Sequence record: OR896822.1 | Source of the DNA: Salmonella phage vB_SenS-3 | Reading direction: 5' to 3' (one strand) | DNA length: 64,000 nt | Shown here: positions 10,875-40,826 of the stretch, one piece after another | How the letters are laid out: each line of letters opens with the position of its first letter | Numbering within the stretch: position 1 is the first letter of the stretch | The notes under the pieces: model-generated | What the model was told of the DNA's origin: nothing | The model's database searches: none | The model's input: only the letters and a program-made list of their open reading frames with translations | Translations under genes and position numbers: made by a program

Positions 10875-11103
10875 CTTCTTTAATTAATTCTCCTAATTCC
10901 TTATAAACACGTTCTAACTCAAAAGGGATACGTAAGGATATTCGTACCTTACGTTGTTTTAACAGCCATATAGATACGTTCGGAATACCAGCCAATCTGG
11001 GAGGGACCACTCGGCATAGTTTCTCCGCAGTATCGTAAACAGAAGTTTTCCGTTCTTTTACTGAAAACTTCCTTGTTTCCCACTTTTTATTCTTCGCTGT
11101 CAT
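10852..11103 (-). CDS. hypothetical protein
   Basis: ORF overlapping 3' end of helicase gene; start trimmed to internal ATG; basic protein. Confidence 0.4.
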   Translation of the reverse strand: MTAKNKKWETRKFSVKERKTSVYDTAEKLCRVVPPRLAGIPNVSIWLLKQRKVRISLRIPFELERVYKELGELIKEDDNSRRG

Positions 11104-13876
11104 TTCTAGCCCCCAATTCAGCAAGAGCTTCCTCATGCATCTGACGTTCTTCATCTGTCATAAACTTAACTGGAATCGGCATACATTCGATCTTACAGTA
11201 AGTTCTGTACCAGTCCACAATCTTTTCCGTATCCAGATCTTTACCGATACCCATCATGCCAAGATACATACGAGCATATTTTGGGTTAGCGCTCTGACCT
11301 GTCTTAAGGAAGAAATCCTTCTTCTTATTCTTAAGAGCTTCGATAAACGGTTTGATTGTTACGTTTGAACACTTTTTAATATCTTCCCAGAACATGTCGT
11401 GCATCTTATGGAAGAATGCAGCTCTATCGTTTGGTTTATCCTTGATATACTGTTCAACGTGTTCCACTGTTACATCTTTAATAGAATCCAGATGATAATA
11501 GCGAACCAGAAGTAACTTGGCTTCATAGGCATCTGCATGACGTGGTGCACAATATTCAGGAGTTGAGTGCAAAATAGCTTTGATTCGCTCTTCTGTATAC
11601 TCTTTGCCTGCACCTTCGATAGTCCCCCAGCTTTCACTGAAGATATCAATAGTTGCACCTTGATCGAGAAGATAATAACGCAAAGTACTGGTATAGTTTC
11701 TAGATTCCAGCTCACGACGGCGTGCGTACAGTTGCTGAGCTAACTCAATCCAACCCTCGTCAATATTATATTGCTCGGAACCAGCAGAGAATCCACTCGT
11801 AGATTTATCAATAAAATAATAAATGTTCTGAGCACCACGGTCGCGCCTGATTGCTTGAAAACGCATGTTTGGCGCTTGGTTTGAGGTTCTAGTGATTACG
11901 AATACGTTATCAAAATAGTTAAAGTCAACACCACTCGTTACAGATGGACTACATAACAAACAATCAATCTGTTGATCAATTAGCTCATTAGTTGTATAAT
12001 CCAGAATACGTCGGATATCTACATCAGACGTAGAGTTTGAGTGAATTTCTTTAACTAACGCACCAGTATTACGACGTAATGCCATTCCCTTCTCATTCAG
12101 TTCATCCGGGCCACAGTCAGATACTAGGATTGATTTCTCCCCCATCTCTAAAGATGTTTGAAGTGCAACCCAAATACTGGATTCATCAGGGAACTCATAT
12201 GCATGAGCTTTTGCCAGCATTTTACGGTGATGATTATAGAACGCGACCGGTTTATCAAAATCAATCAAAGAACCATAGGCTTCAATCGTTTCTGCACTGA
12301 TATCACCATCAGATAAGATAACCGTTTTTGCAGTAATAAGAATATCGCGAAGAACCTGAATACATTCACGACGGTTTTTAACAACCGGGGCGAATAACAG
12401 ATCATTCATTACTGCGTCACATTCATCAATAAAGATCGTATCAATCTGACCCACAAAGCTCTTGAACTTATGGATAGAGTGAATAGTTGAAGACATACGA
12501 TCAATAGCACCACGTTTGAAGTTCAGCATATCAACTGACTTATCATACTGACCAGCACCGAATTTCTTCGCGTTTGAAGATACAAGTGCCCTAGTATTTG
12601 TGATTGCAATAAAGTTTCCTGGAAGAACACCTGCATCTAGCCACTTAGTTACTGCTGTGGTTTTACCTGTACCAAGACTTGCCTTAACAAATGTTAAATG
12701 TCCTTTTGGGGGTACAATGTTAATCTTCAAGTATGGAACTTCTGGCGGTGAATCTGTGTCCAGACGCTTTAGTGGTACACCTTTTAAGTTGGGTGGAATC
12801 TCACGTTTGGAGTTATTCACAAAGGCTTTTAGAGCCTGCTTACGACCGTTATTAAAGTAATCTTGAATATTACGACTATTATCTTTAGTTGCAATATATT
12901 CAGATAAAGCTGGTTTAATCTCACGTTCTAACCACGTAAAGTCAACACCATCTTCTAACGCTCTGTGATAAAGTTTTGGGATAATACGCAGGTACACCCC
13001 ATCCTCAGCTTCTTCTAGTTCGCTGATGGTTTCTTCCACTTTATCAGATGCAGCTTTCTTGCCTTTAATTTGGTCAAGTAAGGAGTAGAATTCTTCTTTA
13101 AACTCACCTCTAGTTGTTTCAAAGTCAACTAGGTTATTGGGTAGATTCACTTTCGAACCCTTAACATACACAAGACGTGGTTTATTCTCCGCTTTAAACG
13201 GATCGACTATACCATCATCAAACAAGGGATCTGCGAAATAGTGAAGCTGAACAGAAGAATAATAAGCTAAGTCAGCAATATCAAAGCCATACTTTTGCTT
13301 ACTACTGTCATTGATAGATGTAAATAAGAACTTTAACTGTCCCTGCGTTACCTTGACATTAGATTCTAGCATTAAGTGCATTCGGATACCTGGTTTTAAT
13401 CCAGCCGAAGACGATGCATGGGCAATAAACCCTGCATCAAGAGGAAACATATCCTCACTAATACTATTCAACATCTTAATAATATGACGTGCCATGCCAA
13501 CAAGATTAAACTTGTCATAGCCACCAGTATCTACAATACCATCCACGTCCATAGCGATAATATGACTAGGATTGGATACGTTAAAGTTTCCTCTGGTACG
13601 ACGCACATTATCTTTTGGAGCTAGACATTTACCACGAATAGCTACAATATGCGGGTCTTTGGTAAGACGACGCATGATAGATAACATTTCAGCAAGGTTT
13701 TGCGGGTCAAGTTCTTCAAGTACATCAAATTTGAAGGGCATGGAAGCTGGTTTACCTTCTGGATGCTCTTTAGAGAATCGCTTTGCAAAGGTATAATCTT
13801 CCACTTTGATCTCTTTCCAGATGCCAGTGGCTTTATCTCTGGAAAATCCTGCGTGACCTTGTAGGATTGAGAACAC
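11087..13876 (-). CDS. large P-loop NTPase / superfamily helicase (putative replication origin-binding or primase-helicase type)
   Basis: Walker A SLGTGKTTAV mid-protein; six-frame ORF extends to 13999, but a GTG at 13876 follows RBS AGGAG and the upstream N-terminus looks non-coding. Confidence 0.75.
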   Translation of the reverse strand: MFSILQGHAGFSRDKATGIWKEIKVEDYTFAKRFSKEHPEGKPASMPFKFDVLEELDPQNLAEMLSIMRRLTKDPHIVAIRGKCLAPKDNVRRTRGNFNVSNPSHIIAMDVDGIVDTGGYDKFNLVGMARHIIKMLNSISEDMFPLDAGFIAHASSSAGLKPGIRMHLMLESNVKVTQGQLKFLFTSINDSSKQKYGFDIADLAYYSSVQLHYFADPLFDDGIVDPFKAENKPRLVYVKGSKVNLPNNLVDFETTRGEFKEEFYSLLDQIKGKKAASDKVEETISELEEAEDGVYLRIIPKLYHRALEDGVDFTWLEREIKPALSEYIATKDNSRNIQDYFNNGRKQALKAFVNNSKREIPPNLKGVPLKRLDTDSPPEVPYLKINIVPPKGHLTFVKASLGTGKTTAVTKWLDAGVLPGNFIAITNTRALVSSNAKKFGAGQYDKSVDMLNFKRGAIDRMSSTIHSIHKFKSFVGQIDTIFIDECDAVMNDLLFAPVVKNRRECIQVLRDILITAKTVILSDGDISAETIEAYGSLIDFDKPVAFYNHHRKMLAKAHAYEFPDESSIWVALQTSLEMGEKSILVSDCGPDELNEKGMALRRNTGALVKEIHSNSTSDVDIRRILDYTTNELIDQQIDCLLCSPSVTSGVDFNYFDNVFVITRTSNQAPNMRFQAIRRDRGAQNIYYFIDKSTSGFSAGSEQYNIDEGWIELAQQLYARRRELESRNYTSTLRYYLLDQGATIDIFSESWGTIEGAGKEYTEERIKAILHSTPEYCAPRHADAYEAKLLLVRYYHLDSIKDVTVEHVEQYIKDKPNDRAAFFHKMHDMFWEDIKKCSNVTIKPFIEALKNKKKDFFLKTGQSANPKYARMYLGMMGIGKDLDTEKIVDWYRTYCKIECMPIPVKFMTDEERQMHEEALAELGARNDSEE

Positions 13877-14372
13877 AACAATACTCCTATGTTGGTTATT
13901 CGAATATCTTTCTTTAGGACTATTCAAAAGAATAGAACAACTATTACTACCATTTACACAAACATTAATCATCATCAAGCAGTATGAATAAGTTATCATA
14001 CCTCAGTGCTGCGCTCTCTTAACTCTTATCCAGATCAGAACCTAGGTCATTGGCCGCTAAGCCGATTCTGATTGCCCTCACTATCCTATTGGTAGGTGGC
14101 TACTGGACGTGTCACCATTCGCTGCTCTTTTCGTTCGCACCCCCATATAAAGCTCTGCCTATATAACGAGCTAAATATGCACGGTTTGGATTTACCTTTC
14201 CGAATTCAGGGTACGCAGATCACTTAATTGATAATTAACTAATGCAGTATAAACACTAGTAATAGTTAAAACAACCCTTAATGGGGCAGCCTAACTGTTC
14301 CGTATTGCGGACTGTAAACAAGAAAAATTAGCAAAATCAATTTTTACTAATGTCTCTCAATTCAATATAAAT

Positions 14373-14401
14373 ATTATATCAAGATTTTGAGCATCCTGCA
14401 A
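14373..14401 (-). promoter_or_regulatory. sigma70-type promoter reading into the ORF-free region 13877..14372
   Basis: minus-strand -35 TTGCAG, 17 bp, -10 TATAAT, conserved ATTTATATTGAATTGAGAG leader. Confidence 0.55.
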
Positions 14402-14440
14402 GTAAAATTTTTCCGAAGGTGCTATCAGTGTCCTTGAGCA

Positions 14441-14468
14441 CAGAGAAAACCGAGTCAAAATGACTCGG
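14441..14468 (-). terminator. putative terminator downstream of gene 14493..14816
   Basis: 9-bp perfect hairpin ACCGAGTCA/TGACTCGGT followed by TTTCTCT on minus strand. Confidence 0.5.
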
Positions 14469-14492
14469 TAATCAGGATTGAGCTAATGAAAA

Positions 14493-14816
14493 TCAATCAT
14501 CATTTAGGCCTGGGACATAGATTCCAATGCGATTTAATTGACCTTTAGCTTCTTCGAGAATATCTTCGGTGTACTCCCAAATATCATCTTCTACTTGCAA
14601 AAGATAAGGGGATTCACCAGTTTCGGGCTCACGTGTAATGGCTAAGCCACGTGGATGGAATATAGAGAAGTTGAGGGCAACAATCAAGCCCATGCTGGAC
14701 AATTCATTCCAGTCAGCTTCCCAGCCATCATCTTCATCTTCGTCCACAAATACACCTACACTAGGGTCTGTTACAGAAGTAAACGGAAATGTTACACTAA
14801 CCTTGTCAACCCCCAA
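14493..14816 (-). CDS. hypothetical protein, paralog of 14898..15326
   Basis: 107 aa; shares DW-EL-MGL-ALN ... TGE-P ... PGL pattern with the adjacent ORF. Confidence 0.6.
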   Translation of the reverse strand: MGVDKVSVTFPFTSVTDPSVGVFVDEDEDDGWEADWNELSSMGLIVALNFSIFHPRGLAITREPETGESPYLLQVEDDIWEYTEDILEEAKGQLNRIGIYVPGLNDD

Positions 14817-14897
14817 CCAACGTGCAAGGAGCCCCTCAGCACGCTATACCAAACTAGGATCTATCTGACGCCAAAATACTTGTTCCATTCTGCCTCC

Positions 14898-15326
14898 TTA
14901 AGCAGTTAAACCTGGGATCATATACCCGAAACGACGAAGTTTCTGAATCCCCTCATTTACTTCCTCGGGCGAATATGACCAGCCCTCACGTTCATTTACC
15001 TGGAAAGCAGGAGCTTCACCAGTGCGATAGTTTACAATAAGACGGTGATTTGCAGGCATAAACAGCTTATGGTTCAAGGCAAAAACCAGACCCATTTCAT
15101 CGAGTTCTTTCCAGTCTACAATTTCTTCTACTCCCCCACCTAAATCCACGCTAACTCCAATACACGGAGCTTCCTCTAGTGGGCCTTTAAAAGACAGGAA
15201 GATATCGTTATTCTCACACCAAATCTTAAGCAGATTGATGGTTTCATTGTACATACCATTAGGGAGAGAACGCCAGAAGTTGAGGAGCATAGGATTTACC
15301 TCTTTCATGAAAATATTATTGAACAT
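14898..15326 (-). CDS. hypothetical protein, paralog of 14493..14816
   Basis: 142 aa; C-terminal region alignable to neighbouring 107 aa ORF. Confidence 0.6.
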   Translation of the reverse strand: MFNNIFMKEVNPMLLNFWRSLPNGMYNETINLLKIWCENNDIFLSFKGPLEEAPCIGVSVDLGGGVEEIVDWKELDEMGLVFALNHKLFMPANHRLIVNYRTGEAPAFQVNEREGWSYSPEEVNEGIQKLRRFGYMIPGLTA

Positions 15327-15328
15327 GC

Positions 15329-15868
15329 TTATACCTTAAGTTTCTGAAGAGCCTTACACATTTCAAGATCTGGACTAAATTCCAGCATATAGCTTATAGC
15401 ATTTAAATCTTGAAGGTTTATTCCAGTCCTGCCATTTACAATAACAGTAGGAAATTGGTACATCATAGCACCAGCATCATCTAGGACGCACCAATGCTTG
15501 AGCTTATGTTTTTCTACGAAACGTAAGACAGAATTACCTCGAGATAAACCACCTCCAGTAAAATCTGTTGTACCAAGAAAACGATCGATCAAACCGAGTC
15601 CGGTCATAATCTGAACGTTCTCCATTTCATTTCGTACAGAAAACCATGAAGATACCCCAACAATCATTATTGGGGATGGCTTAAGAAAGTTCTGAAAAGC
15701 CTGGAGTAATGGCTTGTAAACCCAATCACCACCAAAGAATAGCTTTTCACTATCTGGAGCATGATGGTGAGAGATGCTCGAATTGAGCACCCCATCAATA
15801 TCCGGGAAAATCACAGGAGTATTACTTATTTCCACCAGTAGCATCCCACGTCCAGACTTTAACTTCAT
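15329..15868 (-). CDS. HAD-superfamily hydrolase-like protein (putative phosphatase/nucleotidase)
   Basis: 179 aa; N-terminal IFPDIDGVL resembles HAD motif I (DxDG); VLDDAG near C-terminus. Confidence 0.5.
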   Translation of the reverse strand: MKLKSGRGMLLVEISNTPVIFPDIDGVLNSSISHHHAPDSEKLFFGGDWVYKPLLQAFQNFLKPSPIMIVGVSSWFSVRNEMENVQIMTGLGLIDRFLGTTDFTGGGLSRGNSVLRFVEKHKLKHWCVLDDAGAMMYQFPTVIVNGRTGINLQDLNAISYMLEFSPDLEMCKALQKLKV

Positions 15869-16007: not shown

Positions 16008-16170
16008 ATTCTCCCTCCTTAATAAGGAACTCTTTCCATTCTGCTGTATCCTCATAGATAACGCAGAAATCATCACTCTTCCATGAGAAGTCATCAGTAG
16101 CAAATTCGAAACGGTAGCACCAACTACCGTCTGGCCATACTAAAAGATCACACATGCTTTTCTGGGACAT
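15988..16170 (-). CDS. hypothetical protein
   Basis: start trimmed to ATG after RBS GGAGGG; acidic C-terminus. Confidence 0.4.
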   Translation of the reverse strand: MSQKSMCDLLVWPDGSWCYRFEFATDDFSWKSDDFCVIYEDTAEWKEFLIKEGEYGEEDF

Positions 16171-16999
16171 AAATATTTCCCTCCATAAAAGCTTCAACTT
16201 GATCAATAAAGTGTTTATTACCAAAAACTTCGGCAGCTCCAGCACGCCATACAGTAACACCACGTTTCTCATATTCAAGCTGTTCATCATAGCGAACTTG
16301 AGGGTTAACAACCATCATCTTAGTTCCACGACATACAGCAGGGAATAGTTCCCAGTTGAAGTCAATCACTTGGTTGCTACAACCTACTACAATAACCATA
16401 TCATTGCTAGTAAGTGTATCAAACAGGTTAATCTGACCCATATACCACGGAGCCGTCTCACCAAAGAATGTTACGTTTGGTTTTACCCATTCGTAATCTT
16501 CAGGAACAATTGCAGTGTATCCAACATCTTCGATGATTTGATTGCGACCCCGACGATAGATCACCTCTTTCAAGTACCCGTGAGCGTGAATGATTTCATC
16601 ACGAGGGATACCAGCACGTTCCAGAAGGTCATCAACGTTAGTAGTGAAGTTCTTCACGCTATCCGCACCATAACGCTGGAACCATTCTGCAATTCGCAGA
16701 TGGGCAATGTTAGGCTCAACAGTCTGTAATTCCTGACGACGCATGTTGTAGAACTCATGAGTCTTGAGATACAGATCGTTACCCTCTTCATCAATGCCAG
16801 GGAAACGAGCACTGAAGTAGTTAGGATCATCTTCACCACAGAAGCGACGGAAGCCAGCTTCAAAGTTAGGCAAGCTACATACTTCCTCTAGATCGTACTC
16901 ATCCCACAAAGATTTTCCACTAGCAGTATCAGTACGGAAAGCACGAACACCACTATCAACACTTAAACCAGCACCACTAACAATGATTAGTCTACGCAT
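16148..16999 (-). CDS. Sir2-family (sirtuin-like) NAD-dependent protein
   Basis: 283 aa; sirtuin-like motifs SGAGLSVDSGVRAFR, TTNVDDL, IHAHG, VTFFGE. Confidence 0.75.
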   Translation of the reverse strand: MRRLIIVSGAGLSVDSGVRAFRTDTASGKSLWDEYDLEEVCSLPNFEAGFRRFCGEDDPNYFSARFPGIDEEGNDLYLKTHEFYNMRRQELQTVEPNIAHLRIAEWFQRYGADSVKNFTTNVDDLLERAGIPRDEIIHAHGYLKEVIYRRGRNQIIEDVGYTAIVPEDYEWVKPNVTFFGETAPWYMGQINLFDTLTSNDMVIVVGCSNQVIDFNWELFPAVCRGTKMMVVNPQVRYDEQLEYEKRGVTVWRAGAAEVFGNKHFIDQVEAFMEGNIYVPEKHV

Positions 17000-19629: not shown

Positions 19630-19879
19630 TACACCCTCCTTCTCTAATTAAGACTACTATTATAACTCATTCGAAGGCGGATGTCAACAATATTTTACCA
19701 TAAAGTTCTGTAACATGATCTGAGTCAAAAAATTTTATTTGCCAACCTCTATTAAAAATAGTATAATCACACGCCCGTGTACGCGATATAAAATGATTAT
19801 CTAGTACCATACATCTCCCAATAAAAGCAAGTAAATTTTTTATTTAAAAGCAATATCATGGGTTTATTTAAAATTATAC

Positions 19880-19908
19880 TTGCTTTTTGCTGTAAACCTT
19901 GTTATAAT
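19880..19908 (+). promoter_or_regulatory. sigma70-type early promoter
   Basis: -35 TTGCTT, 17 bp, -10 TATAAT upstream of phoH. Confidence 0.6.
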
Positions 19909-19984
19909 ATATTTGTAAGTTGATAAACAAGATCTCTTTGTTGATCCTCTGTTAGAAGCGAAGTACACTATAGGAGTGTTATTT

Positions 19985-33444: not shown

Positions 33445-34074
33445 TAATAGTGGGGTGCCGAAACCACTTATGTAACAACACTGCCGTCCTAGTATAATAG
33501 GTATTATTAGGGCTTCACCGCCTGAAGATGTGGGTTCGAGTCCCACGGTCGGAAAGAGTTGGATAACTGGTGCTTCTAATGGCGAAGCAATCGCAGGCAG
33601 TTGCGCACTGCCAAAACCACGCGGTAGTTGGTTCCAGGCTAACCAACCACTCTTGAAAAGTATATACTACGGTTTTGCTTGTTCAGGAAGCTTCGCATCG
33701 AAAATCGGAGGTGCGATTTTATCAGACCGCGTGGAGGACGTCTCTCCGTTAAGTGACGAAAAGTGGGACGATTCAGGTAGAGCTGGATATGGAACACCTA
33801 TACATATGCGGAGTGCGCACAAAGCATATTGCGGTGGTACTAAACGAAATTAGGAGTCATGACCTGCACAAGTTTAGTATGTCATAACCGATGTACATTC
33901 AGTACAAAAACCACTGAAGCTAAGATAGATAGTCACCTTGACTTAAACTGGAAGATATTGTCTGACGGAAGGGCTGCAGAGCTTAATCTGAGGGGGCTGA
34001 CCCTACCTACCGTCGGGTATCTTTAAGAGTTCTTACGAGAACTCTTAAAGATACCTAAACATTAAGGAATACTG

Positions 34075-34592: not shown

Positions 34593-34667
34593 CGGGGTGT
34601 AGTCTAAGGGATAGGCAGGAGTCTTCTAAATTCCTTTATGCAGGTTCGAATCCTGTCACCTCGGCCA
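34593..34667 (+). tRNA. tRNA-Arg (anticodon TCT)
   Basis: hand-folded cloverleaf: acceptor CGGGGTG/CACCTCG, anticodon loop CTTCTAA, T-loop TTCGAAT, CCA encoded. Confidence 0.75.
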
Positions 34668-34693
34668 ATCTTATTACCTGTTAGGAAAATAAA

Positions 34694-34894
34694 ATGAAAA
34701 CACGATATATAGTAAAAGTAGTAGGTGAACATTCGCAAGTAAATACCACGGATGTTACAGCACTAGCATTTGAGGTAGTCTCCGGTATAGTCATATTTCA
34801 TAATGGGGATATCAAAGCTCCTGAATTTGCTGTGGATGCTGGCCTGTTTATTTCTGCAACTAAAGTAACTGTAGTAGCTAACTCTTCTAAATAA
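34694..34894 (+). CDS. hypothetical protein
   Basis: 66 aa ORF with RBS AGGAAA. Confidence 0.45.
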   Translation: MKTRYIVKVVGEHSQVNTTDVTALAFEVVSGIVIFHNGDIKAPEFAVDAGLFISATKVTVVANSSK

Positions 34895-34905
34895 TAAGGA
34901 AATAT

Positions 34906-35850
34906 ATGTTTACTAAAAACACTAAAGAACTGACTTCTGAGCAAAAAGTAATTCGTACTATTAAACGTTGGGGTGTTGGTGCTGCTATTAGTCTTGGTGC
35001 TCTTATTCTGGCTCTCAATTCCTATACAGTTGTTCAGGATGGTACTGTTAAGACCCAAACCTTCCTGGGTAAAGTTAGCCCTAATCCTGTATTGCCAGGC
35101 TTCCATATTGTTAACCCATTTGCTTCTTTTGATACTTTTAGTACGAAAGATATTTCCATGAAACTGGATAAACTTCAGGTTCCTAGCCAGGATAAGTTTA
35201 AGTCCACTGTTGACATTACCGTTATGTTGCAGTTTGATGGTGCTAAAGCTCCTATGAACCGTGTTAACGCAGGTACTCAGGATCAAGCTCTGAACAAGTA
35301 CGTTGAAGAGAAGATGCTGTCTACGATTCGTGAGTTTGGTAAGTCTGTACCAAAAGCACAAGATCTGTTCGACGCTAAGATTCAGGCTCAACTGCAAACC
35401 GCTATTCAGCAAGAAGTAGAAGAGTATGCGCGTCCTTATGGTTACACCGTTAAGCAAGTATTCCTTCAGGATATTACTCTGCCACCGGTAATCATGGAAC
35501 AGGTACAGAACACCAAAGTTCGTGAAGAACAAGTTAACGCTGCAAAAGCTGAACTGGCTCGTGTTGAACAAGAAGCACAGCAGAAAGTTAAGCAAGCTGA
35601 GGCGGATCGTTCCGCTCGTGAAAACATGGCAGTAGCTAACGAACGTGACGCAGATGCTAAACTGTACGCAGCTAAGAAAGAAGCTGAAGCTAACGCCGCT
35701 CTGCAACGTACCATTACTCCTGAAATGATTCGTTGGAAGCAGCTGGAAGTTGAAATGCTTCGTGCTGAAAAATACCAAGGTGGTGTACCACAGACTGTTG
35801 TCGGTACTGGCTACGATGGTCAAATGATCATGGATATGCGTAACAAGTAA
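34906..35850 (+). CDS. SPFH/band-7 (prohibitin/HflC-like) membrane protein
   Basis: 314 aa; N-terminal TM helix, SPFH-like core, C-terminal Ala/Glu-rich coiled coil. Confidence 0.7.
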   Translation: MFTKNTKELTSEQKVIRTIKRWGVGAAISLGALILALNSYTVVQDGTVKTQTFLGKVSPNPVLPGFHIVNPFASFDTFSTKDISMKLDKLQVPSQDKFKSTVDITVMLQFDGAKAPMNRVNAGTQDQALNKYVEEKMLSTIREFGKSVPKAQDLFDAKIQAQLQTAIQQEVEEYARPYGYTVKQVFLQDITLPPVIMEQVQNTKVREEQVNAAKAELARVEQEAQQKVKQAEADRSARENMAVANERDADAKLYAAKKEAEANAALQRTITPEMIRWKQLEVEMLRAEKYQGGVPQTVVGTGYDGQMIMDMRNK

Positions 35851-35873
35851 TAGTTACACGTAATCTTCGAACC

Positions 35874-35908
35874 AAGCCCGCGTTTCCTTCGAGAGCGCGG
35901 GCTTTTCT
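35874..35908 (+). terminator. rho-independent terminator after SPFH gene
   Basis: AAGCCCGCG...CGCGGGCTT hairpin followed by TTCTGT. Confidence 0.55.
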
Positions 35909-36054
35909 GTATTTAAGGCAAAAGAAAAAGCCCATAAGTTATTCAACTAAGGTCTTTAGTATTTAATTCTTTAGAATCATATACTATTATTGCAGCAACA
36001 ACGTGCTAACCTTAAGTGCCCTGCGATTTTCCTCTAAAAAGTTAAAAAATTCGA

Positions 36055-36083
36055 TTGCTTGAATGCTAAATTCTCTGTATAAT
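36055..36083 (+). promoter_or_regulatory. sigma70-type early promoter
   Basis: -35 TTGCTT, 17 bp, -10 TATAAT, conserved leader TATAAATTTGAGAGAGGAATCAAAT. Confidence 0.6.
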
Positions 36084-36113
36084 ATATTTATAAATTTGAG
36101 AGAGGAATCAAAT

Positions 36114-37169
36114 ATGATTAAGACTGGTCTAGTAATTGGTAAGTTCGCACCATTAACGCGTGGTCATATTAACCTAATAAACACAGCAGCAACTATGTGT
36201 GAACGAGTTATTGTTGTAGTTAGTCATGATAATCGTTGGCTGGATAAGCAGAACACACGTGATAAGGAAGTATTACAGTTAAAGAATCGACTTCGTTGGT
36301 TAGAACAAACTTACGCGGATATTGAGCACATTTCGGTAGAGTACATTATTGAAGATGATATTCCTGAATATCCGAATGGTTGGCCGGAATATGCTAGAAT
36401 CCTTAATGAAAATTACGGACATTTGCCTGAGATCACCGTTTTCTCTAGCGAACTAGACTATGATGCAGAATATAAGAAATATCTGCCGAAGTTTGGTCAT
36501 TATATTGTAGATTCTGATCGGACTCGTGTTCCAATCTCAGCTACAATGATTCGTAATGATCTTATGAAGTATTGGGAGTTTCTTCCTAGCGTAGTTCGTA
36601 AAGATTACGTGCGTAAGGTTGTAATCATTGGGACTGAAAGCTCGGGAAAGACTACTTTAACAAAATACCTTGCGAAGCTATACAACACTTCGTGGGTAGA
36701 AGAATATGGTCGAACGTATTGTGAAGTTGATCTAGTTGGTAACGAAAATCTGCTTACCAGCGAAGATTATAGTAAAATTGCGTTCAGACACAAAGAGCTA
36801 GAGTTTGAAGCAGAACGTACTGCAAATAAGATCATGTTTGTGGATACAAATGCTTTTATTACTGAGTTCTACCACAGACTTTATGAACATAGTAAGAATC
36901 CTGTGGTTACAGCAATTGCAAAAGAAGAACATTATGATTTAGTAATTGTTCTAGCGCCTACTGTCAAGTGGGTAGATGATGGTTTACGTATTAACTCCGA
37001 TCGTTCAATTACTTCTGAACTATTCGAGCAGATGAAGAAAGAATTTCCAAATCAGTTCCCTGAAGGGCGTACTGTTTACATCGACTCTCCGGACTACAAA
37101 GTTCGTATGGACGAAGCAGTAAACGCAGTAGACTGGCTGATTCATCACTTTAACGTTGGAGAGTTTTAA
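36114..37169 (+). CDS. nadR: NadR-like bifunctional NMN adenylyltransferase / ribosylnicotinamide kinase
   Basis: N-terminal GKFAPLTRGHINLI (nucleotidyltransferase HxGH-type); C-terminal Walker A GTESSGKTT; ATG 36114 after conserved leader RBS. Confidence 0.8.
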   Translation: MIKTGLVIGKFAPLTRGHINLINTAATMCERVIVVVSHDNRWLDKQNTRDKEVLQLKNRLRWLEQTYADIEHISVEYIIEDDIPEYPNGWPEYARILNENYGHLPEITVFSSELDYDAEYKKYLPKFGHYIVDSDRTRVPISATMIRNDLMKYWEFLPSVVRKDYVRKVVIIGTESSGKTTLTKYLAKLYNTSWVEEYGRTYCEVDLVGNENLLTSEDYSKIAFRHKELEFEAERTANKIMFVDTNAFITEFYHRLYEHSKNPVVTAIAKEEHYDLVIVLAPTVKWVDDGLRINSDRSITSELFEQMKKEFPNQFPEGRTVYIDSPDYKVRMDEAVNAVDWLIHHFNVGEF

Positions 37170-37170
37170 T

Positions 37171-37827
37171 ATGACTAACTATCTCGTAAATGACTTTAAA
37201 AACTGGAAACCTCTGGAATATCTGTGGCTGTTCATAGCGGTTGTCTTCATTAGTTTAGCAAACTATAATGGTACAGCTCTAGATTGGGCTACTGCAATAA
37301 CCAATGTGGTTTGTGTTATTCTGGTTGCAAAAGGACGTATTTCCAACTATATTTGGGGCTTAGTGGGTGTTCTTACATATGGTATTACAGCTTTAAACGC
37401 AGATCTTTATGGTAACGCTGCACTAAACCTGCTATACTACGTTCCTATGCAGTTTTATGGAATGTACTTATGGCATAAAAATAAGCCAAGTAATCTGCCA
37501 GATGTTCCAACTAAGGTTCTGACTAAAGCCCAAGCTCTGCTGACTCTAGGGATTCTAGCAGTAGCCACGTTAGGGTATGGTAGTTTCTTAGCTACTACGG
37601 CTGATCCATTTCCAATGTTGGATGCATTTACTGCTGTAGGTAGTGTGATCGCTATGTGGCTTATGGTTAAGCAATATGCCGAGCAGTGGCTGATCTGGAT
37701 TGCTATTAACATTGGTACTGTGTACATTTGGCTTGTAACTGCTCAATCTACAGGTGCATCTTATGCAATCCTAGCAATGTGGCTAGTATTCTTAGGTAAC
37801 TCTATTATAGGAGCCTATAAAGGATAA
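37171..37827 (+). CDS. pnuC: PnuC-like nicotinamide riboside transporter
   Basis: polytopic membrane protein with W/G-rich helices; adjacent and co-oriented with nadR; ATG 37171 after RBS GGAGAG. Confidence 0.7.
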   Translation: MTNYLVNDFKNWKPLEYLWLFIAVVFISLANYNGTALDWATAITNVVCVILVAKGRISNYIWGLVGVLTYGITALNADLYGNAALNLLYYVPMQFYGMYLWHKNKPSNLPDVPTKVLTKAQALLTLGILAVATLGYGSFLATTADPFPMLDAFTAVGSVIAMWLMVKQYAEQWLIWIAINIGTVYIWLVTAQSTGASYAILAMWLVFLGNSIIGAYKG

Positions 37828-37854
37828 TTTGTACGCGTTAACAAATAAAGTAGT

Positions 37855-37878
37855 TATAGCCCTCGCTTAGAGGGCTAT
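37855..37878 (+). terminator. putative terminator hairpin after pnuC
   Basis: ATAGCCCTC-GCTTA-GAGGGCTAT perfect 9-bp hairpin; weak T-run. Confidence 0.45.
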
Positions 37879-37895
37879 TATACAGAAATTTTCAC

Positions 37896-37924
37896 TTGCT
37901 TAATATAGAAAATTTCTGTATAAT
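37896..37924 (+). promoter_or_regulatory. sigma70-type early promoter
   Basis: -35 TTGCTT, 17 bp, -10 TATAAT; leader identical to the nadR promoter leader. Confidence 0.6.
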
Positions 37925-37954
37925 ATATTTATAAATTTGAGAGAGGAATCAAAT

Positions 37955-38251
37955 ATGAAACGCATTGTACTTGCATTGACTCTAGTATCTACTTCTGTAT
38001 TTGCTGCTCCACAACAGGAACTTTGTCAAGTTCAAGTTTGTAATAAGCTAGAACGATTTACTCTAGACATTTGGTCCCACATTAAAGATAATATGGGTGA
38101 ACAGTGTTTTGATATTGTTCTGCCAAAAGAACAAGCTGTTCCTGGGGCTGTTCTCAGCTCAGAATCACGTTGGTGGCAAGGTTCTTCTATCAACCCAACT
38201 AAGAAGTCAGTGACACGTATCAAACAAGTATATCAGTGCAACGTTCAGTAA
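37955..38251 (+). CDS. secreted hypothetical protein
   Basis: signal peptide MKRIVLALTLVSTSVFAAP; paired cysteines. Confidence 0.5.
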   Translation: MKRIVLALTLVSTSVFAAPQQELCQVQVCNKLERFTLDIWSHIKDNMGEQCFDIVLPKEQAVPGAVLSSESRWWQGSSINPTKKSVTRIKQVYQCNVQ

Positions 38252-38259
38252 AATTTCAC

Positions 38260-38288
38260 TTGCTTAATGCCTAAATTTTCTGTATAAT
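38260..38288 (+). promoter_or_regulatory. sigma70-type early promoter
   Basis: -35 TTGCTT, 17 bp, -10 TATAAT. Confidence 0.6.
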
Positions 38289-38321
38289 ATATTCATAAAT
38301 TTGGAAGATTAGGAACTATTT

Positions 38322-38831
38322 ATGTTAGACTATGAGTCTATACTTTATAGATTCCGTTTAGAAGATGGTGTACTGGTGTGGAATCCGCTCTCCGGAAACT
38401 CCAGAGAGGAGAAGATATTTAATACTAAGTTTGCCAATAAACCTGCGGGATCTTTGCACAAAAGCTCTGGGTATATCAGAGTTAACGTTGATCACCAAGA
38501 TTACTTAGCTCATATCATAGTATTTATACTATATTATGGGTATAGGCCGGAAATGGTTGATCATAAAGACTGCAATAAGTTAAATATACATCCTTTAAAT
38601 TTAAGAGCAGCGGATAGTACCACTAATACTCATAATGCTAGTAAATCTTCTAGGAATACTAGCGGATTTAAGGGAGTATCCTACCACAAAGCATCTGGTC
38701 AGTGGCAGGGTAGAATAATGTTTAAAGGTAAGTCATACTCCGCAGGGCTGCACAGTACTCCTGAAGCAGCAAATGAAGCTCTAATTCAACTGAGAGAGAA
38801 ACTTCATGGGGAATATGCCCGAAATAATTAA
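38322..38831 (+). CDS. HNH homing endonuclease with AP2 domain
   Basis: 169 aa; HNH core PEMVDHKDCNKLNIHPLNL; AP2-like GFKGVSYHKASGQWQGRIMFKGKSY; stop abuts tRNA-Ser. Confidence 0.75.
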   Translation: MLDYESILYRFRLEDGVLVWNPLSGNSREEKIFNTKFANKPAGSLHKSSGYIRVNVDHQDYLAHIIVFILYYGYRPEMVDHKDCNKLNIHPLNLRAADSTTNTHNASKSSRNTSGFKGVSYHKASGQWQGRIMFKGKSYSAGLHSTPEAANEALIQLREKLHGEYARNN

Positions 38832-38920
38832 GGAAGAATAGCATAACGGTATTGCAGCAGATTGCTAATCTGTCGGTTTGAAACATAGCCTTGTGGGTTC
38901 GATTCCCACTTCTTCCGCCA
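38832..38920 (+). tRNA. tRNA-Ser (anticodon GCT), long variable arm
   Basis: acceptor GGAAGAA/TTCTTCC perfect; anticodon loop TTGCTAA; T-arm GTGGG-TTCGATT-CCCAC; CCA encoded. Confidence 0.8.
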
Positions 38921-38925
38921 AATTT

Positions 38926-39003
38926 GGTTCTCAAGCTCATTTGGTATGAGCCGTCGCCTCATAAGCGAAAGGTAGGTAGGTTCGAATCCTCCGGGAGCCA
39001 CCA
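38926..39003 (+). tRNA. tRNA with CAT anticodon (Met or Ile2)
   Basis: acceptor GGTTCTC/GGGAGCC with G-U pairs; D-stem GCTC/GAGC; anticodon loop CTCATAA; CCA encoded. Confidence 0.7.
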
Positions 39004-39152
39004 GATAACTAGGAGACTTTATGTCACGCTTTCACGAAATTAAGCAAGAACTAGAAGAATGTATGTGTACTGAATGTTGGGGTTCTGGCACTTAATGTTC
39101 CAGTGACTGGATTCCCTGATTGGCTGCAAGGTTACGAACTCTAACAAAATTT

Positions 39153-39238
39153 GGATCTGTGGTGGAATTGGCAATACACACCATGCTTAAAACGTGGCGC
39201 TTAAATGATTGAGGGTTCGAGCCCCTCCAGATCCACCA
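39153..39238 (+). tRNA. tRNA-Leu (anticodon TAA), long variable arm
   Basis: acceptor GGATCTG/CAGATCC perfect; anticodon stem CCATG/CGTGG, loop CTTAAAA; T-arm GAGGG-TTCGAGC-CCCTC; CCA encoded. Confidence 0.8.
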
Positions 39239-39399
39239 AATTAAGGAAGTAAAAATGAAATCTATTAAGAAAGCTATTCGTGAACTTATCCGTTGTCGCT
39301 TCCATAGCATCAAGGCTTCAACTAATGGTACTACTTACGATCGCTACGATCGCTATGATCCTAAGTTTGGCTTACATTCTAAATAACTGGAGAAAACAA

Positions 39400-39606
39400 A
39401 TGGCTAATCCTGAAATTACGGCACAACGTTTTATGCTGAAAGGAATTATTGCTGAAGCAGGCGTGACACAAGAAGTGGAAGATTTCCATAAGCAGTTCCT
39501 AAATATTCTCACTCAAGCCAAAGAGCTAGGAGAGAAAGAACATGGCGCGGCTATTATGGCAATCACATTGGTTGGGCTTGATCTGGCAGAAGAATCAGGA
39601 GTTTAA
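39400..39606 (+). CDS. hypothetical protein
   Basis: start set at internal ATG (MANPEITAQ...) with RBS; upstream part of the listed ORF overlaps tRNA-Leu. Confidence 0.4.
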   Translation: MANPEITAQRFMLKGIIAEAGVTQEVEDFHKQFLNILTQAKELGEKEHGAAIMAITLVGLDLAEESGV

Positions 39607-39636
39607 CTTCTCCAAGCAGAAATTTTAAAAATGTAC

Positions 39637-39666
39637 TTGCTTTTTACTTAAGATTTCTGCTATAAT
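39637..39666 (+). promoter_or_regulatory. sigma70-type early promoter
   Basis: -35 TTGCTT, 18 bp, -10 TATAAT. Confidence 0.55.
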
Positions 39667-39695
39667 AGTTATATAAGTTGATGAGAGGAATCAGA

Positions 39696-39971
39696 ATGTT
39701 AAAACGTTTTGCAGCAACTGGTATTGAAAGCTCAGTATGTAAATCCTGGGGTGGTTGGGAAGGTGAGATCGAGTGGCTTTATTTCTACAATGTAGAACTT
39801 CTTCCAGAGATCAAAGCTCAATGTATTAAGGCTGGTATGGCTCCTGATGCTACGGCTGATGTTGAAATCAGCATGAATAAGCTAGAGGGTCGAGTAGTCA
39901 CTGTTACTGATGAAGGTGAAGAGGTATTCGAACTTCCATTCACTTTGAAAGTCACTCCTTCATTTGATTAA
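39696..39971 (+). CDS. hypothetical protein
   Basis: start at ATG after conserved leader RBS GAGAGGAATCAGA. Confidence 0.5.
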   Translation: MLKRFAATGIESSVCKSWGGWEGEIEWLYFYNVELLPEIKAQCIKAGMAPDATADVEISMNKLEGRVVTVTDEGEEVFELPFTLKVTPSFD

Positions 39972-40008
39972 CTGATACAGCACTTGAGCAAGTTCTTTAA
40001 AATTTGAC

Positions 40009-40038
40009 TTGCTCAAGTGCCTTAAAACTTGATATAAT
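40009..40038 (+). promoter_or_regulatory. sigma70-type promoter heading a tRNA transcription unit
   Basis: -35 TTGCTC, 18 bp, -10 TATAAT; about 120 nt leader then tRNA-Tyr. Confidence 0.55.
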
Positions 40039-40162
40039 AGTTACCTAATTTGGAAACATATCTGAATGAGAAGTAATTAAGCGAGTTGCTTTGAGGGATA
40101 AAGTCAGGATAGCCGGAAATATTCCACCTTGAGTTTAACCGACTTACTTTTCATTCAAATAT

Positions 40163-40243
40163 GGGGGATTGGCTCAGTGGCGACGGCGCCTGGCTGTAGA
40201 CCGGGTATATCACGCGGAGGTTCGAGTCCTCCATCCCCCACCA
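40163..40243 (+). tRNA. tRNA-Tyr (anticodon GTA), long variable arm
   Basis: acceptor GGGGGAT/ATCCCCC perfect; anticodon stem CCTGG/CCGGG, loop CTGTAGA; T-arm GGAGG-TTCGAGT-CCTCC; CCA encoded. Confidence 0.75.
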
Positions 40244-40251
40244 AAATTAAT

Positions 40252-40326
40252 GCACCTATCGTCTAATGGTTAGGACATCAGGATTTCAATCTGAGAATTG
40301 AACTCCGATTCTCCGTGGGTGTGCCA
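40252..40326 (+). tRNA. tRNA-Glu (anticodon TTC)
   Basis: acceptor GCACCTA/TGGGTGT; D-stem GTCT/GGAC; anticodon stem TCAGG/TCTGA, loop ATTTCAA; atypical T-arm; CCA encoded. Confidence 0.6.
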
Positions 40327-40335
40327 ATTAATAAT

Positions 40336-40406
40336 TGGGGTACGCATAGGTTGCTAGTGGGCCTCCAAAACCCATGAAAAGGTTTCGAATACCTTTACCC
40401 CTGCCA
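40336..40406 (+). tRNA. tRNA-Trp (anticodon CCA), atypical
   Basis: T-arm AAGGT-TTCGAAT-ACCTT perfect; acceptor 6 bp with U1/U72 mismatch; anticodon loop CTCCAAA; CCA encoded. Confidence 0.55.
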
Positions 40407-40412
40407 ATATTT

Positions 40413-40487
40413 GCACCTTTAGCTGAGATGGATTAGCGCTTGCCTGAAGAGCTTGAGAGGTTCGTTCAATTCGAACAGGGTGCACCA
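40413..40487 (+). tRNA. tRNA, probable Phe (anticodon GAA); anticodon stem imperfect
   Basis: acceptor GCACCTT/AGGGTGC; T-arm GTTCG-TTCAATT-CGAAC perfect; loop CTGAAGA fits Phe but stem has two U-U mismatches; CCA encoded. Confidence 0.55.
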
Positions 40488-40504
40488 ATTTGAAGGAGAT
40501 GCTG

Positions 40505-40798: not shown

Positions 40799-40826
40799 TA
40801 TTACATAAATTGAACTGGAGAACTAG

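What the first reader, a model, noticed from the sequence alone, without database searches (positions are those of the whole stretch)
13877..15326. Promoter-driven 500-nt ORF-free region next to a tandem pair of paralogous small genes
Upstream of the 970 aa helicase ORF there is no credible coding sequence between about 13877 and 14440. The region is GC-enriched relative to neighbours and is transcribed from a consensus minus-strand promoter at 14373..14401. It could be a long structured leader, an ncRNA or a replication-origin-like element beside the origin-binding helicase candidate. Just beyond lie two diverged paralogs (107 and 142 aa) sharing a DW-EL-MGL-ALN...TGE-P...PGL core, indicating a local duplication.
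Basis: seen in the sequence. Interest (0 to 1): 0.55.

Follow-up and report, generated by a model that had tools for sequence, protein, structure and literature searches.

The report
Conserved structured leader RNA before T5 helicase
The 'empty' 600 bases in front of the replication helicase gene of this T5-like phage encode a large, intricately folded RNA that is conserved by compensating mutations across many T5 relatives and matches no catalogued RNA family, so it is probably a new functional RNA whose role is still unknown.

Summary
The window is a T5-like Salmonella phage. Its 970-aa ORF really starts at GTG 13876 and encodes the T5 D2 helicase, also annotated as 'origin-binding protein'. 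The 616 nt upstream (13877-14492) hold no credible gene.

On the minus strand they contain:
- an intrinsic terminator (14439-14469);
- a T5 early-type promoter at exactly 14373-14401;
- a ~490-nt leader.

The leader is not filler. It holds a 5' hairpin, a conserved motif domain, and a self-contained ~330-nt element (13938-14268). That element is a 40-48-bp interrupted rod closing a 215-nt multi-helix core (14007-14221).

Evidence for conserved structure:
- A covariance model built only from other lineages (Klebsiella, Pectobacterium, Erwinia-like and DT57C-type phages) finds the window's core full-length (E about 1e-4).
- 36 of 51 pairs show double-sided changes, and 91% of cells are paired, against 35-43% when partners are slid.
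- Window versus T5 shows 7 compensatory double substitutions.
- Abundant G-U pairs place the structure on the transcribed strand.
- Rfam has no match.

Function is inferred only. The best guess is an RNA-level module of the D2 transcript. An excised ncRNA or an origin transcript remain open.

The two 'paralogs' are genuine DUF7415 proteins. The '107-aa' one is a 131-aa gene cut short by an amber codon.

The parts
14898..15326 (-). 142-aa DUF7415 protein (T5.106 homologue), first paralog
   Evidence: Pfam PF24187 E=3e-36 with two matched stretches. PHROG 2502, function unknown. 26 homologues, all from T5-like phages.
14493..14888 (-). 131-aa DUF7415 gene (T5.107 homologue), second paralog. In this window it is interrupted by an amber codon at 14844-14846.
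   Evidence: 31% identity to the 142-aa protein, E=1e-18. Alignment with Seafire, T5 and L005 shows GAG/AAG where the window has TAG. Window 14846 is A, where PMBT36 and S.Typ Adana have C.
14439..14469 (-). Intrinsic terminator ending the upstream operon (stem 14449-14469, then a U-rich tail)
   Evidence: Scan hit ACCGAGTCATTTTGACTCGGT + TTTCTCTGTG. Annotated as a terminator at the homologous site of T5 and AKM_ECS.
14373..14401 (-). T5 early-type sigma-70 promoter: -35 TTGCAG, 17-nt spacer, TGaTATAAT. The inferred transcription start is about 14366.
   Evidence: Sequence. A promoter is annotated at the homologous place in T5 and AKFV33. It is nearly invariant in 30 relatives. The start site is inferred, not mapped.
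14320..14358 (-). 5' hairpin of the leader (GAGAGAc-AUUAGUAAAA...UUUUGCUAAU-uUUUCUU)
   Evidence: MFE fold. A hairpin is present at the same place, with different sequence, in the Klebsiella, Pectobacterium and Erwinia-like lineages. It is retained when a homing endonuclease gene replaces the upstream promoter.
14272..14319 (-). Motif-1 domain, including the hairpin CAG-UUAGG-CUG (14287-14297) within ACGGAACAGUUAGGCUGCCCC
   Evidence: Invariant in types A and B. GAACRGUNNGGCYG is conserved in six lineages, 233-247 nt upstream of CUUAGCGG. The stem varies CAG/CUG to CGG/CCG in L051.
13938..14268 (-). Self-contained rod-and-core RNA element closed by helix P0 (14259-14268 with 13938-13947). The rod arms are 14219-14267 and 13938-13979.
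   Evidence: Fold z=-5.3. P0 has GC<->AU covariation. The arms pair over 37-48 bp in eight lineages, z=-4.5 to -8.3 in six of them. Inverted repeat I1.
14007..14221 (-). 215-nt multi-helix core closed by P1 (CUGCGU 14213-14218 with GCGCAG 14009-14014)
   Evidence: Model R1 was built without any type-A sequence and matches exactly these coordinates full-length: E=1.2e-4 in 557 kb, 4.4e-5 in 198 kb. 36 of 51 pairs show double-sided changes and 91.1% of cells are paired, against 35-43% when slid; 0 of 500 shuffles reach this.
14034..14072 (-). Hairpin P6 carrying the invariant GC-UUAGCG-GC tip (14052-14063)
   Evidence: All 8 stem pairs covary and 98.8% of cells are paired (helix 10). CUUAGCGG is invariant in all lineages and also present in the Providencia and Proteus leaders.
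13980..14002 (-). Branch hairpin P7 on the 3' arm of the rod
   Evidence: Predicted in every lineage with different stems: GUAUGA/UCAUAC, GUGG/CCAC, GAGG/CCUC, AAGGG/CCCUU.
13920..13935 (-). Small 3' hairpin CUAUUC-UUUU-GAAUAG between the element and the ribosome-binding site. It is not followed by a U tract.
   Evidence: RNAalifold. The stem differs in Klebsiella (CUAUC/GAUAG), DU_PP_V (CUUUCC/GGAAAG) and L051 (ACUAU/AUAGU).
11087..13888 (-). Shine-Dalgarno AGGAG (13884-13888), GTG start (13874-13876) and the 929-aa D2 helicase / 'replication origin binding protein' gene served by the leader
   Evidence: Seafire and T5 annotation. Pfam Herpes_ori_bp. D2 biochemistry in PMC3632103.

Best explanation
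Shown: the interval is the 5' leader of the D2 helicase transcript, and it contains a previously uncatalogued, conserved, highly structured RNA.

Inferred sequence of events: host RNA polymerase starts at a T5 early promoter (14373-14401), just after the terminator of the upstream operon. It transcribes about 490 nt before reaching the D2 start codon. The transcript folds into a 5' hairpin, a small conserved motif domain, and a self-contained ~330-nt element. In that element, two AT-rich arms 290 nt apart pair into a 40-48-bp interrupted rod. The rod closes a 215-nt multi-helix core with an invariant UUAGCG hairpin tip and conserved junction nucleotides.

What is shown: the promoter and terminator sequences, the absence of coding capacity, and the conserved structure on the sense strand.

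What is inferred: the element works as RNA, in cis, as a control or processing module that sets how much D2 helicase is made. The likeliest routes are a protein binding the conserved hairpin and core, or cleavage of the long rod by a double-strand-specific RNase. Cleavage would separate the folded domain from the D2 message and change its stability or translation.
For: No credible ORF in the interval, and no 3-nt periodicity in the substitutions.

Promoter and terminator are present in the sequence and are annotated in T5.

The sense strand folds with z=-4.6 for the leader and -5.3 for the element, against -2.3 for the antisense strand.

Types A and B share near-identical flanks and a 451-455-nt length, but have very different centres that keep the same helices.

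Covariance model R1, built from other lineages only, recovers the window's core full-length at 14007-14221 on the minus strand only.

Covariation statistics: 36 of 51 pairs have changes on both sides; 91.1% of cells are paired against 35-43% when slid; the covariation score is 0.449 against 0.07-0.11; 0 of 500 shuffles reach this.

Seven compensatory double substitutions separate the window from T5.

Many conserved G-U pairs would be A-C mismatches on the other strand.

Rod pairing is present in all eight lineages tested.

No terminator lies between the element and the D2 start, so it is co-transcribed with D2.

The core type tracks the D2 protein lineage: D2 identity is 93-100% with type A and 86% with type B.
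Against: No transcript data: the start site, processing and abundance are all inferred.

The core ends about 120 nt before the ribosome-binding site, and the rod ends about 50 nt before it.

Predicted accessibility of the Shine-Dalgarno sequence varies from 0.01 to 0.79 between lineages, so there is no conserved sequestering platform. No attenuator terminator follows the element.

A closed, self-contained domain with its ends brought together is as typical of an excised stable RNA as of a cis regulator.

Homology could not be traced to Vibrio or Aeromonas relatives, although they keep an even longer gap.

The alignment used for pair counts was fitted to the model.
Confidence: 0.45

Rival explanations
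1. Excised stand-alone ncRNA. The long rod is a processing stalk, like the stems flanking rRNAs. Cleavage releases the ~330-nt folded domain, which then works in trans. Possible roles are part of a ribonucleoprotein, a decoy or anti-defence RNA, or a ribozyme. The D2 message simply shares the promoter.
For: The element is closed by nested long-range helices, which bring its two ends together over 37-48 bp in all lineages. The core has a complex multi-junction architecture with invariant unpaired nucleotides (GAGAAGUG, AGC, UUAGCG). There is no overlap with the ribosome-binding site and no conserved sequestration of it. Optional modules and different promoters are tolerated outside the element.
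Against: No evidence of cleavage or of a stable species. There is no terminator of its own. The position directly in front of D2 is conserved in every lineage, which fits a cis role as well. The interrupted rod is not proven to be an RNase III substrate.
Confidence: 0.25
2. Replication-origin transcript. The promoter-driven structured RNA acts at the DNA as a primer or R-loop former, as ColE1 RNA II or the T4 ori(uvsY) transcript do. Alternatively it loads or positions the adjacent D2 helicase. The interval would then be a primary T5 origin. This does not exclude a role in D2 expression.
For: The element lies immediately upstream of the gene for the UL9-like SF2 helicase proposed as initiator (Pfam Herpes_ori_bp; PMC3632103). 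A long non-coding gap at this position is kept throughout Demerecviridae. The T5 copy lies at 58.9-59.5 kb of 121.75 kb, and T5 origins were mapped near the centre of the molecule (bioRxiv 10.1101/866236). A strong promoter is followed by AT-rich arms.
Against: No iterons or other repeated binding sites. No GC-skew change at 14 kb; the skew switch is at 20 kb, where transcription diverges. No significant antisense promoter. The covariation with many G-U pairs shows selection on folded RNA, not on duplex DNA. The electron-microscopy mapping is coarse, and multiple origins were reported.
Confidence: 0.18
3. No dedicated function. The interval is a decayed gene, a set of small protein genes, or the remnant of a mobile element such as a homing-endonuclease cassette or intron.
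For: Some records annotate 29-43-aa CDSs here. Type B and Providencia-type leaders contain 60-65-aa ORFs. Homing endonuclease genes and a 97-nt optional module insert in this intergenic region in some relatives.
Against: The small ORFs start with TTG, lack ribosome-binding sites, are Arg/Cys-rich, and are not conserved between types. Substitutions show no codon periodicity, but 7 compensatory pairs. Length and helices are conserved across six lineages. Rfam intron models give no hit even at E<10. There are no flanking exons.
Confidence: 0.04

Closest known systems
ColE1/pMB1 RNA II pre-primer
   Same: A roughly 500-nt untranslated, promoter-driven transcript whose conserved fold matters. It is associated with replication functions.
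   Different: No origin has been mapped at its end. No antisense RNA I-type regulator was detected. The T5 transcript continues into a protein gene. No sequence or structure similarity was found.
Phage T4 ori(uvsY)/ori(34) R-loop origins (from established knowledge)
   Same: A phage promoter that also serves a gene, followed by an easily unwound AT-rich stretch. The transcript doubles as mRNA.
   Different: T4 origin transcripts are not known to need an elaborate conserved fold. Here the dominant signal is RNA secondary-structure covariation. Origin activity was not tested.
Large phage- and prophage-associated structured RNAs of unknown function in Rfam (GOLLD, ROOL, HEARO)
   Same: Large (over 300 nt), multi-helix, supported by covariation, phage-borne, and of unknown function.
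   Different: No Rfam family matches at gathering or permissive thresholds. This one sits in a fixed position as the leader of a replication helicase gene and is confined to Demerecviridae.
Autogenous translational operators of phage replication genes (T4 gene 32 leader pseudoknot, gene 43 hairpin; from established knowledge)
   Same: A structured element in the 5' leader of a replication gene, with a conserved hairpin tip that could be a protein-binding site.
   Different: Those operators are short and abut the ribosome-binding site. This element is about 330 nt and ends about 50 nt upstream. Binding by D2 or any other protein is untested.
RNase III processing stalks (rRNA operons, T7 early mRNAs, lambda N leader; from established knowledge)
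   Same: Distant complementary segments form a long duplex that encloses a folded domain.
   Different: The rod is interrupted by bulges. No cleavage site is known. Host RNase III dependence is untested.
HSV-1 oriS with UL9 origin-binding protein
   Same: The D2 helicase shares the Herpes_ori_bp helicase region. Type-A leaders contain the 9-mer CGTTCGCAC, which I recall as the UL9 box I core.
   Different: The 9-mer is absent from all other lineages and is expected 0.19 times per window by chance. D2 lacks a demonstrated UL9-type DNA-binding domain. This is most likely coincidence.

Membership tests
Any Rfam 15 family (4227 models, including group I/II introns, riboswitches, 6S, tmRNA, RNase P, GOLLD/ROOL/HEARO) | Match to the family covariance model at or near its gathering score | tested here: not met
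   Whole window at the gathering threshold: only tRNAs. Interval 13700-14700 at E<=10: three chance hits of 11-18 bits. Seven relatives at E<=1: nothing in the leaders.
tRNA / tmRNA | ARAGORN or Rfam tRNA detection in the interval | tested here: not met
   28 tRNAs, all at 33.4-47.5 kb on the + strand; none near 14 kb.
Conserved structured RNA (generic criterion) | Base pairs maintained by compensatory changes beyond the controls, on one strand | tested here: met
   36 of 51 pairs have double-sided changes; 91.1% of cells are paired against 35-43% when slid; 0 of 500 shuffles reach this. Seven compensatory doubles between the window and T5. Model hits on the sense strand only.
Riboswitch | Conserved aptamer-like fold in a 5' leader | tested here: met
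   215-nt covarying core with invariant junction nucleotides.
Riboswitch | Expression platform: a terminator/antiterminator, or conserved sequestration of the Shine-Dalgarno sequence | tested here: not met
   No terminator after the element. Predicted Shine-Dalgarno accessibility ranges from 0.01 to 0.79 across lineages.
Riboswitch | Specific ligand binding | not testable with these tools
   Needs in-line probing or ITC.
ColE1-type primer RNA (RNA II) | Untranslated structured transcript of about 500 nt from a dedicated promoter | tested here: met
   Promoter at 14373-14401 and a 490-nt ORF-free structured leader.
ColE1-type primer RNA (RNA II) | Antisense regulator RNA with its own promoter | tested here: inconclusive
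   One promoter-like site on the + strand at 13769-13797, but the number of sites equals the shuffle expectation (5 against 5.1).
ColE1-type primer RNA (RNA II) | DNA synthesis starts at the processed 3' end of the RNA | not testable with these tools
   Requires nascent-strand mapping.
Iteron-type replication origin | Several direct repeats of an initiator-binding site | tested here: not met
   Only two-copy 9-20-nt chance repeats in 13800-14520. TTAGCGG occurs once here and 4 times in the window, against 4.85 expected.
Promoter-plus-DUE origin (T4 type) | AT-rich unwinding element just downstream of a promoter | tested here: inconclusive
   The rod arms 14219-14267 and 13938-13979 are AT-rich, but they are explained by the covarying RNA rod. 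No unwinding or initiation data exist.
RNase III processing stalk | About 20 bp or more of double-stranded RNA formed by distant segments | tested here: met
   37-48 inter-arm pairs in eight lineages, interrupted by bulges.
RNase III processing stalk | Cleavage by RNase III | not testable with these tools
   Needs an rnc host or an in vitro assay.
Group I intron | Flanking exons in one reading frame and a conserved catalytic core | tested here: not met
   No upstream exon or ORF. D2 has its own Shine-Dalgarno sequence and start. No Rfam intron hit.
T5 early promoter class | TTGC-type -35, 17-18-nt spacer, TATAATA -10 with an A/T-rich discriminator | tested here: met
   TTGCAG-17-TATAATATT. Consensus as quoted in the AKFV33 record. 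ATATT is noted for early promoters in PMC7472727.
Pfam DUF7415 (the two paralogs) | Score above the curated cut-off of PF24187 | tested here: met
   123.7 and 91.6 bits against a cut-off of 27, with two stretches each.

The most novel reading that the evidence does not exclude
The element is the founding member of a new class of large (about 330 nt, or about 450 nt with flanks) structured phage RNAs with an active role. One version is the long-sought cis element of T5 replication initiation: an origin transcript whose fold is recognised or remodelled by the bipolar D2 helicase. The other version is a catalytic or ligand-sensing RNA that gates the onset of phage DNA replication.
Probability: 0.22. 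Interest if true: 0.88.

Novelty: new variant of a known kind. Interest (0 to 1): 0.68.

Why it matters
T5 is a classic model phage. Its replication origins and the control of its replication genes have never been defined at sequence level.

This interval turns out to hold one of the rare large bacterial or phage RNAs with a complex, covariation-supported fold and no known function. It sits directly in front of the gene for the helicase thought to start replication. It is conserved in phages of Escherichia, Salmonella, Klebsiella, Pectobacterium and Erwinia/Pantoea.

The finding gives precise coordinates, helices and testable mutations (P0, P1, P6, the UUAGCG loop) for experiments on D2 expression, RNA processing and origin function.

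It also corrects routine mis-annotation. The D2 start has been over-extended, and spurious small CDSs have been called inside the RNA.

Tried and rejected
- **Rfam and tRNA searches:** three Rfam searches and ARAGORN found nothing in the interval.
- **Small-ORF hypothesis:** rejected. The ORFs are not conserved, have TTG starts, and substitutions show no periodicity.
- **Iterons and repeats:** none.
- **GC or AT skew as an origin marker:** the GC-skew switch lies at 20 kb with the change of gene orientation, and nothing interpretable occurs at 14 kb.
- **MAFFT plus RNAalifold on all lineages together:** type A was mis-registered and only 7 pairs were found. This was solved by seeding without type A and using the covariance model.
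- **Reaching distant relatives with the model, filters off:** there was only a weak partial hit in Providencia (E=0.07) and nothing credible in the Proteus, Vibrio or Aeromonas phages or in L053/L054. The Aeromonas gap is not significantly structured (z=-1.3).
- **Pattern scan of 596 Gb of bacterial genomes:** 65 hits, about the number expected by chance, all unrelated GC-rich DNA. In IMG/VR only Demerecviridae hits are genuine.
- **Kissing interaction between the UUAGG and UUAGCG loops:** not supported, because the first loop varies freely.
- **Conserved Shine-Dalgarno sequestration:** not supported.
- **UL9 box-like 9-mer:** present in type A only, probably coincidence.
- **Function of the DUF7415 paralogs:**
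  - PHROGs lists the family as unknown.
  - The PDB sequence search gave only spurious LRR hits.
  - The AlphaFold model has pLDDT 66.
  - Foldseek against the PDB gave no match below E=1.
- **Literature:** six full-text searches found no description of this RNA and no T5 transcriptome map covering it. The Bourguignon 1976 paper is not held.
Full report
**Identity of the window and the genes**

The 2-kb stretch around the finding is 99.8% identical to Salmonella phages S.Typ Adana and PMBT36. It matches 524 T5-like records, 414 of them over most of the query. Genes here run on the minus strand.

The '970-aa' ORF (11087-13999) is over-extended. AGGAG at 13884-13888 followed by GTG at 13876 gives the 2790-nt CDS annotated in Seafire and T5 as 'replication origin binding protein' T5.108. 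This protein hits Pfam Herpes_ori_bp. It corresponds to the biochemically characterised bipolar SF2 helicase D2, whose Walker A motif at residues 399-406 fits (PMC3632103).

**Checking the observation**

Between 13877 and the stop of the upstream gene (14493) there are 616 nt with no credible ORF. Only 20-43-aa fragments are present.

- *Terminator.* On the minus strand, a 9-bp G+C-rich hairpin with a U tract lies at 14439-14469. T5 annotates it as a terminator.
T5 and AKFV33 annotate a promoter at the same place. The TATAATATT context fits the early class (PMC7472727). The generic scan missed it because the -35 is only 3/6 to TTGACA, so 'consensus' holds for the -10 only.
- *GC content.* It is 47.5% at 14000-14199, against 33-41% beside it.

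**What the interval is**

The inferred 490-nt transcript (about 14366 to 13877) folds far better than shuffles on the sense strand (z=-4.6). It folds less well on the antisense strand (z=-2.3). Rfam and ARAGORN find nothing.

I collected the region upstream of D2 from 32 IMG/VR contigs, metagenome contigs and annotated phages. In T5/Epseptimavirus-type phages the leader comes in two versions. Type A is found in the window and T5; type B is DT57C-like. Both have almost identical first ~100 and last ~70 nt and a constant length of 451-455 nt from a common anchor. Their central ~270 nt are very different.

Where the centres differ, they preserve the same helices:

- The long-range helix P1 reads CUGCGU/GCGCAG in the window, CUGUGU/GCACAG in T5, CUACAU/GUGUAG in L020, and CUAGAA/UUCUAG in Klebsiella phages.
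- RNAalifold on 30 leaders recovers nested long-range helices. These are P0 (14259-14268 with 13938-13947, with a GC<->AU switch), P1, and a hairpin P6 with four covarying pairs.

**Independent test of the fold**

I built a covariance model of the P1-closed core from lineages other than type A. These were:

- type B;
- an Erwinia/Pantoea-like metagenome contig (L051);
- Klebsiella Sugarlandvirus;
- Pectobacterium My1;
- Pectobacterium DU_PP_V.

RNAalifold on this seed gave 51 pairs, 32 with compensatory changes.

The model found the window's core full-length at 14007-14221, on the minus strand only. The E-value was 1.2e-4 in 557 kb and 4.4e-5 in 198 kb. The boundaries were the ones I had drawn by eye.

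| Measure (resulting 21-sequence alignment) | Observed | Partners slid 1-3 columns | Shuffles |
|---|---|---|---|
| Cells forming standard pairs | 91.1% | 35-43% | 74.8% |
| Pairs with changes on both sides (of 51) | 36 | 10-19 | 21.2 +/- 2.2 (0 of 500 reach 36) |
| Covariation score | 0.449 | 0.07-0.11 | 0.179 +/- 0.011 (0 of 500 reach 0.449) |

The alignment was fitted to the model, which favours it. The slid controls and the unseeded type-A hits argue that the signal is real.

At close range, the window and T5 differ at 36 positions of the leader:

- 14 of these substitutions form 7 exact compensatory pairs.
- 8 more substitutions keep pairing through wobble.
- The substitutions show no codon periodicity (15/11/10 by position mod 3).

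Many conserved G-U pairs would be A-C mismatches on the other strand. The structure is therefore selected on the transcribed strand, that is, as RNA.

**Anatomy (minus strand, coordinates)**

| Feature | Coordinates | Notes |
|---|---|---|
| 5' hairpin | 14320-14358 | |
| Motif-1 domain | 14272-14319 | Contains ACGGAACAGUUAGGCUGCCCC |
| Rod-and-core element | 13938-14268 | z=-5.3 |
| Rod arms | 14219-14267 and 13938-13979 | AT-rich; pair over 37-48 bp in all eight lineages tested; z -4.5 to -8.3 in six |
| Branch hairpin P7 | 13980-14002 | On the 3' arm |
| Core | 14007-14221 | 215 nt; helices P1-P6; conserved unpaired GAGAAGUG-like and AGC nucleotides |
| Hairpin P6 | 14034-14072 | Invariant GC-UUAGCG-GC tip |
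| Small 3' hairpin | 13920-13935 | |
| Ribosome-binding site | 13884-13888 | |

The distance from motif 1 to CUUAGCGG is 233-247 nt in six lineages.

**Distribution**

A combined pattern for the two motifs finds only Demerecviridae among genuine hits in IMG/VR. In 596 Gb of bacterial genomes it gives a chance-level 65 unrelated hits.

Providencia and Proteus phages keep the CUUAGCGG hairpin but are too diverged for the model. Vibrio and Aeromonas relatives have no detectable homologue, yet they keep an even larger unannotated gap of 1100 and 1590 nt before the same gene. The Aeromonas gap has three sense-strand TTAGCGG copies against 0.5 expected.

**How it may work**

This part is inference.

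- *Cis control of D2.* No terminator separates the element from D2, so it is part of the D2 transcript. I rank an RNA-level, cis-acting role in D2 expression first (0.45). Against a simple translational switch, the element ends about 50 nt before the Shine-Dalgarno sequence. Predicted Shine-Dalgarno accessibility is not conserved (0.01-0.79). No attenuator is present.
- *Excised ncRNA.* The closed rod-and-core design would equally suit an RNase III-type processing stalk that releases a stable ncRNA (0.25).
- *Origin transcript.* The case is circumstantial (0.18). The element lies next to the UL9-like helicase gene. The T5 copy is at 48.5% of the genome, while origins were mapped near the centre (bioRxiv 10.1101/866236). 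A strong promoter is followed by AT-rich DNA. There are no iterons and no skew signal.
- *Decayed gene or mobile-element remnant.* The covariation makes this unlikely (0.04).

**The paralogs**

The 142-aa protein (14898-15326) and the next gene are 31% identical over 124 aa (E=1e-18). Both are Pfam DUF7415 with two matched stretches each and belong to PHROG 2502, of unknown function.

The pair corresponds to T5.106 and T5.107 and is present throughout the group. The duplication is therefore old, not local.

In this window the second gene (ATG 14888, 131 aa in relatives) carries TAG at codon 15. This results from a single base change at 14846 that is absent from the 99.8%-identical relatives. 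It is either a natural nonsense mutant or a sequencing error.

Attempts to assign a function failed. The PDB sequence hits are spurious. The AlphaFold model has pLDDT 66. Foldseek found no match below E=1.

**Comparison with what is known, and novelty**

No Rfam family matches, and six full-text literature searches found no description of this RNA.

In kind it resembles other structured phage leaders and large ncRNAs of unknown function. In position it resembles primer and origin transcripts. It fails or cannot be tested on the defining features of each; see the membership table.

I therefore file it as a new RNA family, a new variant of a known kind. The structure is well supported and the mechanism is open.

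Noticed in passing
window 14844-14846 (minus strand codon 15 of the gene starting at 14888): An amber codon (TAG) truncates the T5.107-homologue DUF7415 gene. The closest relatives (PMBT36, S.Typ Adana, Seafire, L005) have GAG, and T5 and type B have AAG/AAA. No amber-suppressor tRNA was seen among the phage tRNAs.
   Followed up: yes
L017:2455-2551, L020, L034 (homologous to window about 14320, between the 5' hairpin and GUUUACA): A 97-nt optional module is inserted in the leader, flanked by TTTTTCTT/TTTTTTCTT direct repeats and containing its own 8-bp hairpin. It is present once per genome in 51 of about 540 T5-like records, in both type A and type B backgrounds. It looks like a small mobile or exchangeable RNA module.
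   Followed up: partly
L003:1016-1468 (AKFV33 orf111), L013/L016/L027; Salmonella phage S132: Free-standing homing endonuclease genes are inserted between the terminator and the leader. In the AKFV33 type the insertion brings a different promoter, but the transcript from GAGAGACAUUAG onward is unchanged.
   Followed up: partly
window 15329-15868 (minus): The 179-aa protein matches Pfam HAD_SAK_2, the HAD domain of 'Swiss army knife' RNA-repair proteins (E=4e-17). RefSeq T5 labels the homologue T5.105 'Sir2', which looks like a mis-annotation. A true Sir2-like gene is at 16148-16999.
   Followed up: partly
window 14132-14140 (+ strand CGTTCGCAC): This is the only copy in the 64-kb window of the 9-mer I recall as the core of the HSV-1 UL9 box I site. 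It lies inside the RNA core, next to the UL9-like helicase gene. It is conserved in all type-A leaders but absent from the other lineages. The expected count is 0.19 per window.
   Followed up: partly
window 33482-33555 (+) and 34593-47455 (+): A cluster of 28 tRNA genes. It includes one called tRNA-SeC with anticodon TCA (an opal-reading, suppressor-like tRNA; Rfam tRNA score only 33 bits).
   Followed up: no
L042:219-1808 (Aeromonas phage TS3), L040:831-1931 (Vibrio phage JSF10): Much longer unannotated gaps (1590 and 1100 nt) precede the same helicase gene. In these phages the gap lies between the divergent nrdD and obp genes. The Aeromonas gap has three sense-strand TTAGCGG copies (0.5 expected) and three GGCGGAACCYT repeats. 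One repeat lies beside UUAGGCU, echoing motif 1 of the T5-type leader.
   Followed up: partly
L203:897-1028 and 1158-1259 (PMBT36); L004:1535-2045 (AKM_ECS); window 11087-13999: Public records annotate 29-43-aa 'hypothetical proteins' inside the structured RNA and over the promoter. Some extend the helicase CDS to the upstream ATG at 13999, which adds 41 spurious residues.
   Followed up: yes
window 19630-19975: The GC-skew sign change and the switch from minus- to plus-strand genes both occur here, between nrdD and the next gene. This is another candidate landmark for replication or transcription organisation.
   Followed up: no
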